A DNA stretch of 32,000 nucleotides from an uncultured archaeon (GTDB lineage: Archaea; Asgardarchaeota; Thorarchaeia; Thorarchaeales; Thorarchaeaceae), in contig CAZYLT010000013.1 in the NCBI GenBank assembly GCA_964648855.1, positions 50,147-82,146 on the forward strand, given 5' to 3'. The translations under genes were made by a program, and so were the position numbers. The number at the start of each line of letters is the position of its first letter. The first letter of the stretch is position 1. Positions 4,733-27,626 of this stretch are shown piece after piece. The notes under the pieces are model-generated. The model did not search any database, was not told the DNA's origin, and saw nothing but the letters and a program-made list of their open reading frames with translations.

Positions 4733-5560
4733 ATGAGCCAAGTTGCGTTGGTAAGAACAAAACAGAATCTTCGGGACTCACTCGAAGATGCCATAGAGCT
4801 GATTGGTGGATTTGGCGATATCAAGTCCCCAGTATTGATAAAACCAAATATATGCACAATCTCAGATGGTACCGGGCACTCTGTGACAGATCCAAATCTA
4901 GTGCAGCACCTAATTGAACTAATCCTATGTCGTGATGAGAGTCTATCAATCAAAATCGTTGAGTCCGACAGCCAAAGCAAGTACGCAGAGGAGGCATTCA
5001 AGAAGTTCGGGTATACAGATTTCGTAGACAAACTACAAGACGATGGTTCAGACGTAAAATTGGTAAATCTGAGTAAGTCACCGCTAAAGAGATTGGCTTT
5101 CGAGGGCGCCTATTTCGAAAATGCTGAGCTACCGATAGAGATTATTGATGAAAACTACTTCATATCAGTAGCAATCGCAAAGACGCATTATCTCACGAAA
5201 ATCACTGGATCGGTGAAGAACCTGTTCGGTCTTCTTCCCCAGAAGAATCAAGCATCATATCACTCAGACATCAACGATATCATATTAGATTTCAGCAAAA
5301 TAGTCAGACCCAAATTGTGTGTGATAGACGCCAGAGTAGGAGTTGAGGGATGGAACGGTCCAAAGACACACCAGATGGATTTGTTGATAGCAGGAAGGGA
5401 GCCTGCCTCGGTAGACTCAGTGATGGCACAAATCATGGGATTAATTCCTGAAGATGTGAATCATTTAGTGGCTGCTGCAGATCAAGGGATGGGAACACTA
5501 GAACCAGATATTATTGGAGAGGATTTAGAATCTTTATTTGGCTTATTCAATCCCAAATAA
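4733..5560 (+). CDS. DUF362 domain protein
   Basis: VLIKPN, KTH...TGSVKNLFG and D-P/A-VD motifs. Confidence 0.88.
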   Translation: MSQVALVRTKQNLRDSLEDAIELIGGFGDIKSPVLIKPNICTISDGTGHSVTDPNLVQHLIELILCRDESLSIKIVESDSQSKYAEEAFKKFGYTDFVDKLQDDGSDVKLVNLSKSPLKRLAFEGAYFENAELPIEIIDENYFISVAIAKTHYLTKITGSVKNLFGLLPQKNQASYHSDINDIILDFSKIVRPKLCVIDARVGVEGWNGPKTHQMDLLIAGREPASVDSVMAQIMGLIPEDVNHLVAAADQGMGTLEPDIIGEDLESLFGLFNPK

Positions 5561-5762
5561 TAGGCAACTAGGCTGACGAGATTGTTGCTGAATCTGAAGA
5601 CTTTGAACTGCTTCCGTTGTATTTGCAAAGCTCATGCCGATTCACACCCAACACTAGGATTGTAGAATAAGTTCTAGAATGGGCAAAGTATGCCACGAAG
5701 TATCGATTTCTTGACAAGGTTACAATGGTACAAAATCCTAAAGAATGATAGGACGAGTTATA

Positions 5763-5784
5763 GGAGGGGATCCGCCACCCCTCC
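5763..5784 (-). terminator. GC-rich hairpin downstream of the 20-aa microprotein
   Basis: GGAGGGG-N8-CCCCTCC perfect 7-bp stem. Confidence 0.5.
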
Positions 5785-5828
5785 CAGATTCTTGATTATC
5801 GCGAAGCACAGAAAAACCGAGATACTAG

Positions 5829-5891
5829 TTATTTCTTGGGCTTCTTCTCGTTCTTCTTCTGAGTCTTTGCTGGTTTCTTATCCTTTGCCAT
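5829..5891 (-). CDS. 20-aa lysine-rich microprotein MAKDKKPAKTQKKNEKKPKK (not in ORF track)
   Basis: ATG...TAA; SD GAGGTGA 5 nt upstream; upstream TATA-like TTTTTAAA (about 6015-6022); downstream hairpin. Confidence 0.7.
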   Translation of the reverse strand: MAKDKKPAKTQKKNEKKPKK

Positions 5892-6132
5892 CTTTTTCAC
5901 CTCGACGGACATTCAGAGGCCCTCCACTGTCAGCCAACCTATACCATCCTCACTGTTTGTAGATATTTCGAGCTCAGAAATTAGGACCTCGAGCCCTTAT
6001 TTTGGTAATATTAGTTTAAAAACATATCTAGTTAAAAATAAGGCACCTATATGGTTTCTATTGACATTTAAAGGTACTATATTCCCTTTTCATTTCTAGT
6101 TTCCTCAAAAATACAACTACGATTCGGATATA

Positions 6133-6194: not shown

Positions 6195-6359
6195 CTATAC
6201 TTTCTTGATCATCTTCTTTCTTTTGTCTAGTTCGTCTTTCGACATCTTTTCTATGTCGTGAGCTCTTGCACCATGTGTCTTGATCTGTTCAACAGTGTCC
6301 GCCATGGTTTCGGCGGATATTACAGTATCGCACATCTGACACTTGAATTCATACGGCAT
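6195..6359 (-). CDS. DUF1059-family small metal-binding protein, 54 aa (not in ORF track)
   Basis: MPYEFKCQMCDTVISAETMADTVEQIKTHGARAHDIEKMSKDELDKRKKMIKKV; CxxC...HxxxxH pattern. Confidence 0.85.
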   Translation of the reverse strand: MPYEFKCQMCDTVISAETMADTVEQIKTHGARAHDIEKMSKDELDKRKKMIKKV

Positions 6360-6636: not shown

Positions 6637-8895
6637 ATGGTTAGTTTCAGGAAGACCGAGAGCAGAGTTATAATCGGTTTTCTAATTATAATTGGCTTCG
6701 CATATCTTTTCTTCATAAGTGATCCTCCGTGGAGGACACACGGTTCTGCTCTGGCATATCATTCTGTCCTAGGATTCTTATCTGTGGTGGCAGTTGCATC
6801 AGCTACAAACAGAGTCATAATGGACCCGTCGCCTTCGCATAGAGTGTTTTTTGCCGCCACAGGGTTTCTTGCTATTATTCATCTTGGAGCTTCTTTGCTT
6901 CATATGATGCCCATGACTGAAGTTGTTGCACATACAGAATCAAAAGGAGTCTTCGTGGACATTGTGGAGATGGCGCTCCTTGGTTCAATGCTTTCTTTAG
7001 CAGCTTATCTCAATAGTGAGCCATCGAAGGAAAGACCCCTTTGGAACAAAGACAGAACAACAGCCGCTATACTTGTAATTTCGTTGGCTACATATGGCGC
7101 GGCTATTTTTGTTTCCGAGATACCCGCTCTCTCGCCTTATTTGGTGGCGAGTGGATTCTTCATAGGATTTGCTACTTTGGGTGCATTTGTCCTTTCATGT
7201 TTCTTCGCTTTCAAGCGTCCTGTAGACATCTCTTCACATGACAGGAACCGACTGATTGGCTCCTATCTCTTATTCAGTCTTTCAACAGTCGTACTTCTAT
7301 CGGTCCTAAATTCGCCAAATAGCCTTTGGTTGTTCACAATAATCTTTCAGGCAGGTGCGCTGATTTTTATCCTCATCGCGGCAGGATACCCATTTCTACT
7401 GGATGTTGGACTTCAAGAGAATGTTGCTTATTCCTTCATAGTAGCGCTTACAGCCCTCGCGGTGGTACCTTTCATTCTTGCTCAGCTAGTGGGGTCTTGG
7501 CTTCCTATTGCGTCTTACGAGAATCAACCTCTAGGTATAATTACCCATGTTTCTGCGGGACTTCTGTCTGGGGTGTCGGGTTATATCCTCACACAGCGAC
7601 TGCAAGAGAAGACGCCTTGGTATGACGGCCCAGCAATATTCGCATTGTTCTCGTGGACTCTTGTAGAATCAATCATTGTTGGCATTCGATTGTTCCAGCC
7701 GAATGGTATTGCTATGGAATCAATGGTGCCGTATTTGTTTGGAGGGGGCATTACTTTCCTAGCACTGTCGATTGCCATTCACCGAACCCTTCAGCCACCT
7801 CACAAGGGTAAGCCCTATGGATACTCGTCTATTGGACGCATTTTATTGCTCATCATCGCGATTCTGATTATTCTGATTGAAAGCACTCTAATCATGAGCC
7901 CGACATTACACACACTGGGGCAAAATTCGCAAGTCATTTCAGCAATTCTATACATCATGAGTTATATTTCTGTGTTCGTAATCACTGTCTTTGTCATGCT
8001 ACGGACTGCACGGGCCGGTGGCGTATACTCCGTTGAGATTGTGGGCGTAGGTTCTCTCTCACTCTGGGCTATCTCCCAAATATTGCGAGTCAACTTCTCT
8101 ATATGGACTATCGGTTGGTGGGCTGCGGAGCTTTTACCATTCATAGTCTTTTTATTCCTCCCACCTCTTGTCGCCGGATTGTACGTCGAAAAGCATCATT
8201 TGGAAGAGCGTCTAGAAACTGCTTCGAAAATCTACACGAATCTCTTAGTGGACAAAATAGACCGCCACCACAGACAAGCATTGGATTCACTCAGTGGAAT
8301 ACTAAGTGATGTGAGGCTCAAAGGCAGAGAGATGGAGGAGGTTTCCAGAGCGATGACAGAGGTCTCTCGAGCAAATGATATAGTTGAGAGGTTTGACACG
8401 ATAGTCAAAGGAAGAATACCTGAGGTCGAGGAAACTGGAACCATTGATTTGCATGATGCAATGCAGGCAGCCTTTGAACAGATTTATCAAATCCACCCGC
8501 AGGTACCAAAACTGATGATGGAGGCTTGCACAAGGGAGTGCACAGTGCGGAGAGAGAAAATAGTTGTTGACCTATTCTACAATCTGCTGAAGGGGCTTCT
8601 GACAAGAATACATGCAACGTCCATTTCCGCGAGGGTGGAGAGATGCGAAGCTGATATGTGGTGCACTGAGATTCGGATTGGAACGGATTCTGATATTCAG
8701 GATTCTTTGAGAGATTTAATCAGTCGATATCTATTCCAGGTCAGAGAGAGCAATATTGAGTTTCTTCTGGTCAATGAATACATGCGACTGCTAGGAGGAG
8801 ATGTTGTTGTGGATGACACTGCAACGAAAGAAAGTCGTGATGCAATCATCATAACAGTAAGGCTTCAAGCTGCCAACTTGAGTGATGAGAACTAA
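6637..8895 (+). CDS. large polytopic membrane protein with degenerate histidine-kinase-like C-terminal domain
   Basis: About 15-16 TM helices, then helical and GHKL-like segments (IDLHDAM, LFYNLL, MRLLGGDVVV, ITVRL). Confidence 0.7.
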   Translation: MVSFRKTESRVIIGFLIIIGFAYLFFISDPPWRTHGSALAYHSVLGFLSVVAVASATNRVIMDPSPSHRVFFAATGFLAIIHLGASLLHMMPMTEVVAHTESKGVFVDIVEMALLGSMLSLAAYLNSEPSKERPLWNKDRTTAAILVISLATYGAAIFVSEIPALSPYLVASGFFIGFATLGAFVLSCFFAFKRPVDISSHDRNRLIGSYLLFSLSTVVLLSVLNSPNSLWLFTIIFQAGALIFILIAAGYPFLLDVGLQENVAYSFIVALTALAVVPFILAQLVGSWLPIASYENQPLGIITHVSAGLLSGVSGYILTQRLQEKTPWYDGPAIFALFSWTLVESIIVGIRLFQPNGIAMESMVPYLFGGGITFLALSIAIHRTLQPPHKGKPYGYSSIGRILLLIIAILIILIESTLIMSPTLHTLGQNSQVISAILYIMSYISVFVITVFVMLRTARAGGVYSVEIVGVGSLSLWAISQILRVNFSIWTIGWWAAELLPFIVFLFLPPLVAGLYVEKHHLEERLETASKIYTNLLVDKIDRHHRQALDSLSGILSDVRLKGREMEEVSRAMTEVSRANDIVERFDTIVKGRIPEVEETGTIDLHDAMQAAFEQIYQIHPQVPKLMMEACTRECTVRREKIVVDLFYNLLKGLLTRIHATSISARVERCEADMWCTEIRIGTDSDIQDSLRDLISRYLFQVRESNIEFLLVNEYMRLLGGDVVVDDTATKESRDAIIITVRLQAANLSDEN

Positions 8896-27428: not shown

Positions 27429-27626
27429 CTGGCTAAGAAAAAGAAAGTAGAATATCCAACCTTCATCGTGAAGAGTGCAATAAAGGAATTTGCCAAGATG
27501 CATGACATGATGGTAGGCTCTGACGCCTATGATGCCATCAATGAAAGACTCGGGGAGATGCTCACGGAAGCAGCAAACCGAACAAAGGAAAATGGGAGAA
27601 AGACTCTCAAAGGCTACGACATGTAG
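27429..27626 (+). CDS. archaeal histone-fold protein (face-to-face/DUF1931-like), 65 aa, CTG start (not in ORF track)
   Basis: (M)AKKKKVEYPTFIVKSAIKEFAKMHDMMVGSDAYDAINERLGEMLTEAANRTKENGRKTLKGYDM; in-frame TAA two codons upstream; GAGGAGTG SD; TTAAAA promoter element at about 27374. Confidence 0.9.
   Translation: MAKKKKVEYPTFIVKSAIKEFAKMHDMMVGSDAYDAINERLGEMLTEAANRTKENGRKTLKGYDM

What the first reader, a model, noticed from the sequence alone, without database searches (positions are those of the whole stretch)
5829..5891. Standalone 20-aa lysine-rich microprotein resembling a free histone tail or H1 PAK repeat
Seen: MAKDKKPAKTQKKNEKKPKK (10 of 20 residues Lys) has a strong GAGGTGA SD, its own TATA-like element and a 3' GC hairpin, so it looks like a complete transcription unit missed by gene callers. 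Inference: it could be a nucleic-acid-binding peptide, such as a chromatin peptide acting in trans on short-tailed archaeal histones or a tiny ribosome-associated protein. I do not recognise it as eL41/eS32 or bTHX.
Basis: partly seen in the sequence, partly recalled or inferred. Interest (0 to 1): 0.7.

Follow-up and report, generated by a model that had tools for sequence, protein, structure and literature searches.

The report
Conserved 20-codon lysine-rich gene, Thorarchaeota
A 20-codon gene for a half-lysine peptide, missed by gene callers, is real and kept under protein-level selection in a few Thorarchaeota (Asgard archaea); in related genera its counterpart is encoded right behind an equally tiny, extremely acidic Asp/Trp peptide, so the two probably act as an oppositely charged pair, but what they do is untested.

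Summary
On the minus strand, 5891..5829 is a 20-codon ORF with 10 Lys. It has a perfect GAGGTGA ribosome-binding site 5 nt upstream, an A/T-rich TATA-like box about 125 nt upstream, a T5 run and a GC hairpin downstream.

It is a real gene. A same-genus Thorarchaeota MAG keeps frame, SD, promoter box and hairpin. Two other genera carry one or two copies. Between close orthologues I count 8 synonymous changes, 0 non-synonymous and one in-frame codon indel, and the ORF is more conserved than its flanks.

It matches no Pfam or NCBIfam family, so it is not eL41 or Thx. It is not fused to anything, and no gene follows it on its strand.

New here: in genera g2, g5 and g15 a similar Lys-rich ORF (MAKKKP...KKKK) starts 64-102 nt after a 25-32-codon poly-Asp/Trp ORF. 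In g1 (this genome), g6 and g9 that acidic ORF has no Lys-rich ORF behind it, and the stand-alone "MAKDKK" gene is present instead.

My best reading is a polycationic peptide that acts as the unlinked partner of the acidic peptide. Chromatin or ribosome binding remains possible.

This scan noted similar oligolysine micro-genes, and the acidic/basic pair, on other DNA before. No expression data could be obtained.

The parts
5829..5891 (-). 20-codon Lys-rich ORF (ATG 5891-5889, stop TAA 5831-5829)
   Evidence: Conserved in frame in G001, G006, G094, G021 and G009. Close orthologues differ by 8 synonymous changes, 0 non-synonymous changes and one codon indel (and reading of the aligned DNA).
5897..5903 (-). 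Shine-Dalgarno GAGGTGA, 5-nt spacer to the ATG
   Evidence: Identical 7-mer in every type-A copy in three genera. The full 7-mer precedes only 0.4% of long ORFs in this genome.
5892..5995 (-). Inferred 5' leader of about 100 nt. The TSS is not mapped.
   Evidence: The distance from the TATA-like box to the ATG is about 125 nt. A similar distance to a conserved GCGTATA box is seen in g6 and g9. Folding is no better than shuffles (z 0.35 and -0.08). No covariation was found.
6015..6041 (-). A/T-rich TATA-like promoter region (TTTTTAAA at 6022-6015, second A/T stretch at 6041-6032)
   Evidence: The block AGATATGTTTTTAA.CTAATAT is nearly identical in the same-genus genome, while the surrounding spacer diverges. 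Function is inferred, not shown.
5812..5816 (-). T5 run 13 nt after the stop codon, a candidate archaeal terminator
   Evidence: A T5-T6 run sits at the same place in the 'a' copies of genus g6.
5761..5786 (-). GC-rich hairpin (GGAGGGG / CCCCUCC stem, 8-nt loop)
   Evidence: Kept in G001 with a loop change. In g6 and g5 a hairpin of different sequence sits downstream of the stop: about 45-50 nt after it in g6, about 10 nt after it in g5.
5892..5912 (-). In-frame upstream ATG extension (27-aa form), not the real start
   Evidence: The ATG at 5912 is absent in G001.

Best explanation
window:5832-5891:- is a genuine, efficiently translated micro-gene. Its product is a 20-residue, disordered, polycationic peptide: net charge +8, with Pro residues and no hydrophobic core. 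I read it as the relocated, stand-alone version of the Lys-rich micro-ORF that other Thorarchaeota genera encode 64-102 nt behind a 25-32-residue poly-Asp/Trp micro-ORF. This genome encodes that acidic peptide on another contig (C9:31434-31532, net charge -24).

Proposed mechanism (inferred): the peptide works purely by charge. It binds and neutralises a polyanion, most likely the acidic Asp/Trp peptide. In that way it would set how much of each peptide is free to bind its other targets. For the Lys peptide those targets would be nucleic acid. For the acidic peptide the target may be the very basic PaaX/Cas2-like protein encoded next to it.

What is shown:
- the gene is real and under protein-level selection;
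- operon linkage in three genera;
- a complementary distribution of the two arrangements.

What is inferred:
- homology of the two Lys-rich types;
- physical binding;
- any downstream effect.

My odds: real translated gene 0.85-0.9; same functional family as the operon-encoded Lys peptide 0.6; acts through the acidic peptide 0.4.
For: Protein-level selection:
- Independent changes between close orthologues are 8 synonymous, 0 non-synonymous, plus one 3-nt indel.
- Only about 16% of random single-base changes in this ORF would be synonymous (my arithmetic from the codons).
- ORF identity is 95-100%, against 73-92% for 110-130-nt flanks.
- The overlapping plus-strand frame 5690-5962 is not conserved.

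SD: GAGGTGA is invariant in all copies and rare genome-wide.

No fused form: no hit in a longer frame at E<=0.5 in 86 family genomes.

Linkage to the acidic ORF:
- A Lys-rich ORF directly follows the acidic ORF at 8 g5 loci, at all 8 g2 loci recovered, and in g15.
- g1, g6 and g9 have the acidic ORF next to the same basic protein but no Lys ORF behind it. Only they have the stand-alone MAKDKK type.

Likeness of the two types:
- They share the opening MAK(D)KKPAK. In DNA this is 26 identical bases apart from one codon.
- Lengths are similar, 17-25 aa, and both end in KK.
- In this genome the acidic ORF and the Lys ORF carry almost the same SD context, GAGGTGAAAAA.
Against:
- Homology of the stand-alone and operon types rests on a short low-complexity match and could be convergence.
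- In g8 and g12 the acidic ORF was found but no Lys ORF with my patterns, so co-occurrence is not shown to be universal.
- Only about three independent lineages stand on each side of the complementary pattern, and the tree of the neighbouring protein does not resolve them.
- Charge ratio is +8 to -24, so any complex would not be 1:1.
Confidence: 0.5

Rival explanations
1. A free, H1-tail-like chromatin peptide. It would bind DNA or nucleosome-like histone-DNA complexes directly and compact or bridge them, independently of the acidic peptide.
For: - Composition is K/P/A/T-rich. Motifs such as KKPAK and KKPKK resemble linker-histone tails; the operon-type relatives are even more H1-like.
- The Thorarchaeota genomes checked have only short-tailed histones.
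- Lys-rich N-terminal tails exist on other Asgard histones (bioRxiv 10.64898/2026.07.02.735847).
Against: - No linkage to any histone gene; the neighbours are DUF362/DUF1059 in g1 and hdrA/hdrC-like genes in g6 and g9.
- No tailed histone in the group whose tail it could be compared with.
- The operon partner in relatives is an acidic peptide, not a chromatin gene.
Confidence: 0.2
2. A lineage-specific tiny ribosomal or rRNA-bound protein, analogous to eL41, bS22 or Thx.
For: - Tiny and polybasic, with an exceptionally strong SD suggesting high output.
- No eL41 match was found in this genome (but the control shows this search is unreliable).
Against: - No Pfam or NCBIfam match.
- Contains Asp, Glu and Pro and no Arg, unlike eL41 or Thx.
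- Detected in only 3 of 16 genera in this form, in two tandem copies in g6, and never near ribosomal genes.
Confidence: 0.12
3. The RNA is the functional product, or nothing is: the ORF is a by-product of a purine-rich small RNA or of a young, drifting locus.
For: - Narrow taxonomic range.
- Low-complexity sequence.
- A leader of about 100 nt and a conserved 3' hairpin.
Against: - All substitutions between close orthologues fall on third codon positions, and the indel is one codon.
- No Rfam hit.
- Folding is no better than shuffles and there is no covariation.
Confidence: 0.08
4. A regulatory leader peptide or uORF that senses lysyl-tRNA and controls a downstream gene.
For: Ten Lys codons in 20, and a strong SD.
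Against: - No gene follows on the same strand.
- The next gene (DUF362, 4733-5560) is convergent, and a T-run plus hairpin lie in between.
- The same holds in g6 and g9.
Confidence: 0.03

Closest known systems
Tiny polybasic ribosomal proteins (eL41/eS32, bS22, Thx)
   Same: 17-30 residues, very basic, often missed by gene callers, thought to act by charge on RNA.
   Different: No sequence or profile match. Lys only, with Asp, Glu and Pro. Patchy distribution and duplicated in one genus. Not linked to ribosomal genes.
Linker-histone (H1) C-terminal tail and Lys-rich N-terminal tails of Asgard histones (HLoB/HMpB; bioRxiv 10.64898/2026.07.02.735847)
   Same: Disordered K/P/A/T-rich polycation of similar length (16-32 aa tails).
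   Different: Stand-alone: no globular or histone-fold domain is attached. The Thorarchaeota genomes checked have no long-tailed histone.
Prothymosin-alpha / histone H1 and DSS1/Sem1-type disordered polyanions (own knowledge)
   Same: The analogy is with the pairing seen in relatives: an extreme polyanion with spaced Trp next to a polycation, both disordered. High-affinity charge complexes are known for such pairs.
   Different: No homology was shown; Pfam gives no DSS1_SEM1 hit for the acidic ORF. Both partners here are micro-peptides of 20-32 residues encoded as a micro-operon or as two separate micro-genes.
Oligolysine micro-genes and the acidic-Trp / Lys-rich / basic-protein trio noted earlier in this scan (e1-2085034, e1-4801724, e1-4380448, e1-4731602, e1-5570569)
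   Same: Uncalled 14-37-codon Lys-rich genes with their own signals. One note describes the same trio of acidic Trp peptide, Lys-rich peptide and ~274-aa basic protein.
   Different: Those are AI notes on other DNA. Here the Lys-rich gene is unlinked from the acidic one, and the complementary distribution is documented.

Membership tests
eL41/eS32 (Pfam PF05162) | Match to the family profile | tested here: not met
   No Pfam family at E<=1 for the 20-aa or the 27-aa form.
eL41/eS32 (Pfam PF05162) | Arg/Lys-only helix without Pro or acidic residues (own knowledge of the family) | tested here: not met
   The peptide has 0 Arg, 2 Pro, 1 Asp and 1 Glu.
Thx / other bacterial tiny r-proteins | Profile match | tested here: not met
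   No Pfam or NCBIfam hit.
Linker histone H1 / tailed Asgard histone | Lys-rich tail covalently attached to a winged-helix or histone-fold domain | tested here: not met
   The stop codon is conserved after 17-21 codons in all copies. No hit in a longer frame at E<=0.5 in 86 family genomes.
Linker histone H1 / tailed Asgard histone | K/A/P-rich low-complexity composition | tested here: met
   50% Lys, 10% Pro, 10% Ala. This is composition only, not homology.
Leader peptide / uORF | A regulated gene downstream in the same transcript | tested here: not met
   The next gene is convergent, with a T-run and hairpin in between.
Known RNA family | Rfam covariance-model match | tested here: not met
   0 matches in the window.
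Thorarchaeota Lys-rich micro-ORF family (unnamed; defined here) | 17-25 codons, opening MAK/MSK, at least 45% Lys, ending KK, preceded by an SD-like G(A)xGTGA | tested here: met
Thorarchaeota Lys-rich micro-ORF family (unnamed; defined here) | Genome also encodes the poly-Asp/Trp micro-ORF beside the ~250-aa basic protein | tested here: met
   G000 C9:31434-31532, next to C9:30338-31078.
Thorarchaeota Lys-rich micro-ORF family (unnamed; defined here) | Common descent of the stand-alone and operon-encoded types | tested here: inconclusive
   Shared MAK(D)KKPAK opening and complementary distribution. However, the sequence is low-complexity and the tree is unresolved.

The most novel reading that the evidence does not exclude
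Thorarchaeota encode a natural oligo-Lys / oligo-Asp-Trp peptide pair that forms a charge-driven complex or condensate. The Lys peptide would buffer a DSS1-like, DNA-mimicking acidic peptide and so tune a PaaX/Cas2-like nucleic-acid-binding protein or chromatin. This would be an archaeal counterpart of eukaryotic polyelectrolyte pairs such as prothymosin-alpha/H1.
Probability: 0.2. Interest if true: 0.85.

Novelty: new variant of a known kind. Interest (0 to 1): 0.55.

Why it matters
Genes this short are invisible to standard annotation. None of the ten peptide sequences I looked up here is in a 15-billion-protein collection. This one nevertheless shows clean protein-level selection.

If the Lys peptide and the acidic Asp/Trp peptide do act as a pair, Asgard archaea would use genetically encoded polycation/polyanion micro-peptides. 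That principle is known from eukaryotic disordered proteins (H1/prothymosin, DSS1) and from synthetic coacervates, but I found no description of it for archaea in the papers I could search.

The hypothesis is cheap to test with synthetic peptides.

Tried and rejected
- The search for homologous proteins refuses queries under 40 aa. Structure, atlas and complex tools need 30 aa or more, so none could be applied to the peptide.
- Metagenome scans: the ORF-only pattern gave 0 hits. The SD+ORF pattern gave 2 hits, both N-termini of longer proteins.
- The genome-contig scan gave only the already known Thorarchaeota MAGs plus one bacterial false positive.
- Phylum-wide type-A pattern: two extra hits, both N-termini of long proteins.
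- Phylum-wide operon pattern: every hit outside the family was chance.
- Rfam: nothing.
- Leader structure: z-scores around 0. The alignment fold gave only an invariant 5-bp UGCCA/UGGCA stem in g6, with no covariation.
- eL41 search in the genome: no hit, but the control shows the 25-position model is unreliable.
- A tree of the neighbouring basic protein, meant to polarise the relocation, was unresolved.
- My first acidic-ORF pattern wrongly suggested that g6 lacks the acidic peptide. This was corrected through the basic-protein locus.
- The 'third' copy in G021 (contig C144) has identical ORF and downstream sequence to the copy near the end of C185, so it is most likely an assembly overlap.
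- Literature searches found no description of such peptides.

Full report
**Observation**

The ORF is on the minus strand. The ATG is at 5891-5889 and the TAA at 5831-5829. It has 20 codons, 10 of them Lys, plus 1 Asp, 1 Glu, 2 Pro and no Arg, for a net charge of +8.

- GAGGTGA lies at 5903-5897, five bases before the ATG.
- TTTTTAAA lies at 6022-6015.
- A T5 run lies at 5816-5812.
- A GGAGGGG/CCCCUCC hairpin lies at 5786-5761.

An in-frame ATG at 5912 would give a 27-aa form. That ATG is missing in the same-genus genome, so 5891 is the start.

The organism does use SD sequences: short SD cores are 4-9 times enriched before long ORFs. The full 7-mer, however, precedes only 7 of 1811 long ORFs. 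It is the only Lys-rich micro-ORF of this kind in the 3.1-Mb genome.

**Is it a gene?**

A DNA search of 40 relatives found the locus at 83% identity in the same-genus genome G001, with the same neighbours: Ldh_2, DUF362, the micro-ORF, DUF1059 and a membrane protein.

The ORF there differs by third-position changes only, plus one extra Lys codon. Genus g6 (G006, G094, G021) has two tandem copies about 505 bp apart. Each copy has GAGGTGA and its own downstream hairpin. Genus g9 (G009) has a 17-codon version.

Counting independent changes between close orthologues gives 8 synonymous and 0 non-synonymous. By my arithmetic only about 16% of random single-base changes in this ORF would be synonymous. 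The one faster copy, in G021, shows four conservative replacements.

ORF identity is 95-100%, against 73-92% for the flanks. The antisense frame 5690-5962 is not conserved.

I take the gene as real, with odds of 0.85-0.9.

**Taxon and range**

Record titles of the matching relatives read Candidatus Thorarchaeota (TEKIR_14, TEKIR_12S) or 'uncultured archaeon'. This agrees with earlier notes on this genome.

| Search | Result |
|---|---|
| Type-A pattern over 400 Asgard genomes | Found only in g1 (2 of 2) and g6 (3 of 3); reversed-pattern control 0 hits. Two extra hits were starts of long proteins. |
| SD+ORF pattern over 185,579 species genomes | Only the same MAGs plus one bacterial false positive. 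|
| Two metagenome scans | Nothing added. |

None of the peptides is in the 15-billion-protein collection.

**What it is not**

- There is no Pfam or NCBIfam match and no Rfam match in the window.
- It is not fused to anything. All matches in 86 family genomes with E below 0.5 lie in stop-to-stop frames of 21-94 codons, and the ORF itself ends after 17-21 codons in every copy.
- No gene follows it on its strand in g1, g6 or g9. The next gene is convergent each time. That removes the leader-peptide reading.
- The presumed leader of about 100 nt folds no better than shuffled sequence, and no covariation was found.

**The new lead**

In the G005 locus found by the first DNA search, a related Lys-rich ORF (opening MAKKKPAKK, ending in a Lys run) starts 64 nt after a 32-codon ORF made almost only of Asp and Glu with spaced Trp, ending in Trp.

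A pattern for the acidic C-terminus hit 27 of 86 family genomes, with 0 control hits. The linked and unlinked arrangements then sort as follows:

| Genera | Lys-rich ORF behind the acidic ORF? | Stand-alone MAKDKK type? |
|---|---|---|
| g5 (8 loci), g2 (all 8 recovered loci; some acidic ORFs start with GTG), g15 | Yes, 64-102 nt behind it | Not found |
| g1, g6, g9 | No; three-frame check negative | Yes |
| g8, g12 | Not found with my patterns | Not found with my patterns |

The acidic ORF lies head-to-head with a very basic protein of 247-280 aa in g1, g5, g6, g8, g9, g12 and g15. In this genome the acidic ORF is at C9:31434-31532, with net charge -24.

The two Lys-rich types share the opening MAK(D)KKPAK. 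At the DNA level this is 26 identical bases apart from one codon. In this genome the SD contexts of the Lys and acidic micro-genes are almost the same.

The g6 and g9 copies are syntenic: they lie between hdrA-like and hdrC-like genes on the opposite strand. The stand-alone type therefore predates those genera.

**The neighbouring basic protein**

This protein has no Pfam or NCBIfam family. A confident model (pLDDT 88.7) gives only weak Foldseek matches, to PaaX (E 0.014) and to several Cas2 structures. I record this as context, not as a finding.

**Histones**

The six Thorarchaeota genomes checked each have one canonical histone in an 81-99-codon open frame, so no long tail. The window's own histone-fold gene at 27429-27626 has only a five-residue Lys start. 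A free-tail role cannot be tested by likeness to a real tail in this group.

**Mechanism**

I commit to this reading: a disordered polycation that acts by charge, as the unlinked partner of the acidic Asp/Trp peptide. It would titrate that peptide and be titrated by it, with nucleic acid as the peptide's other likely ligand.

| Reading | Odds |
|---|---|
| Belongs to the operon family | 0.6 |
| Acts through the acidic peptide | 0.4 |
| Direct chromatin peptide | 0.2 |
| Ribosome-bound microprotein | 0.12 |
| Non-coding or neutral | 0.08 |
| Leader peptide | 0.03 |

All binding steps are inferred.

**Novelty**

I found no description of such peptides in the searchable papers. The scan itself has noted oligolysine micro-genes in bacteria, and Lys-rich and acidic micro-peptides in Asgard and other archaea, on other DNA. 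The class is therefore recurrent within this scan. What this case adds is the clean selection signal and the complementary linked/unlinked distribution.

Noticed in passing
outside the window: G000 contig C9:31434-31532 (+) = L062:1420-1518: Uncalled 32-codon poly-Asp/Glu ORF with four spaced Trp, ending in Trp, net charge -24, with SD GAGGTGAAAAAATC. Conserved in at least eight genera of the family, and head-to-head with a 247-280-aa very basic protein wherever that protein's locus was examined.
   Followed up: yes
outside the window: G000 C9:30338-31078 (-) = L093:1501-2241: Very basic ~250-aa protein with no Pfam or NCBIfam family. The AlphaFold model is confident (pLDDT 88.7). Only weak structural likeness to PaaX (E 0.014) and to Cas2-fold proteins, plus a long C-terminal helical hairpin.
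   Followed up: partly
outside the window: G000 C5, protein ending at 47956 (-) = L054: A second family ending in the same Asp-run-plus-Trp C-terminus: proteins of 55-190 aa with a conserved VDPxTFLFEDDD...LPPER core, some with an N-terminal Cys-rich zinc-ribbon-like region. Present in many family genomes.
   Followed up: no
window 27429-27626 (+): Divergent 65-codon histone-fold gene (PF00808 at 17.4 bits here; 25.1 bits, above the cut-off, for the G009 orthologue). It seems to start at CTG in this genome, behind a GAGGAGTG SD. The orthologue starts with ATG and the same AKKKK opening.
   Followed up: partly
outside the window: G000 C2:39310 (+) and C19:16184 (+): Two 28-codon ORFs behind a full GAGGTGA SD, both ending in YFRR. 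Possibly another uncalled micro-protein family.
   Followed up: no
window 6195-6359 (-): 54-aa DUF1059 protein with a CxxC motif directly upstream of the micro-gene. It is conserved as the neighbour in G001 but not in g6 or g9.
   Followed up: partly
window 6637-8895 (+): 752-aa multi-pass membrane protein with a cytoplasmic C-terminal domain and no Pfam match at E<=1. Conserved in G001.
   Followed up: no
L007 (G006:C3) 992-1560; L104 (G009:C10): In genera g6 and g9 the Lys-rich micro-gene(s) sit on the opposite strand, between an hdrA-like gene end and hdrC/hdrB-like genes. They thus split what looks like an hdr gene cluster.
   Followed up: partly
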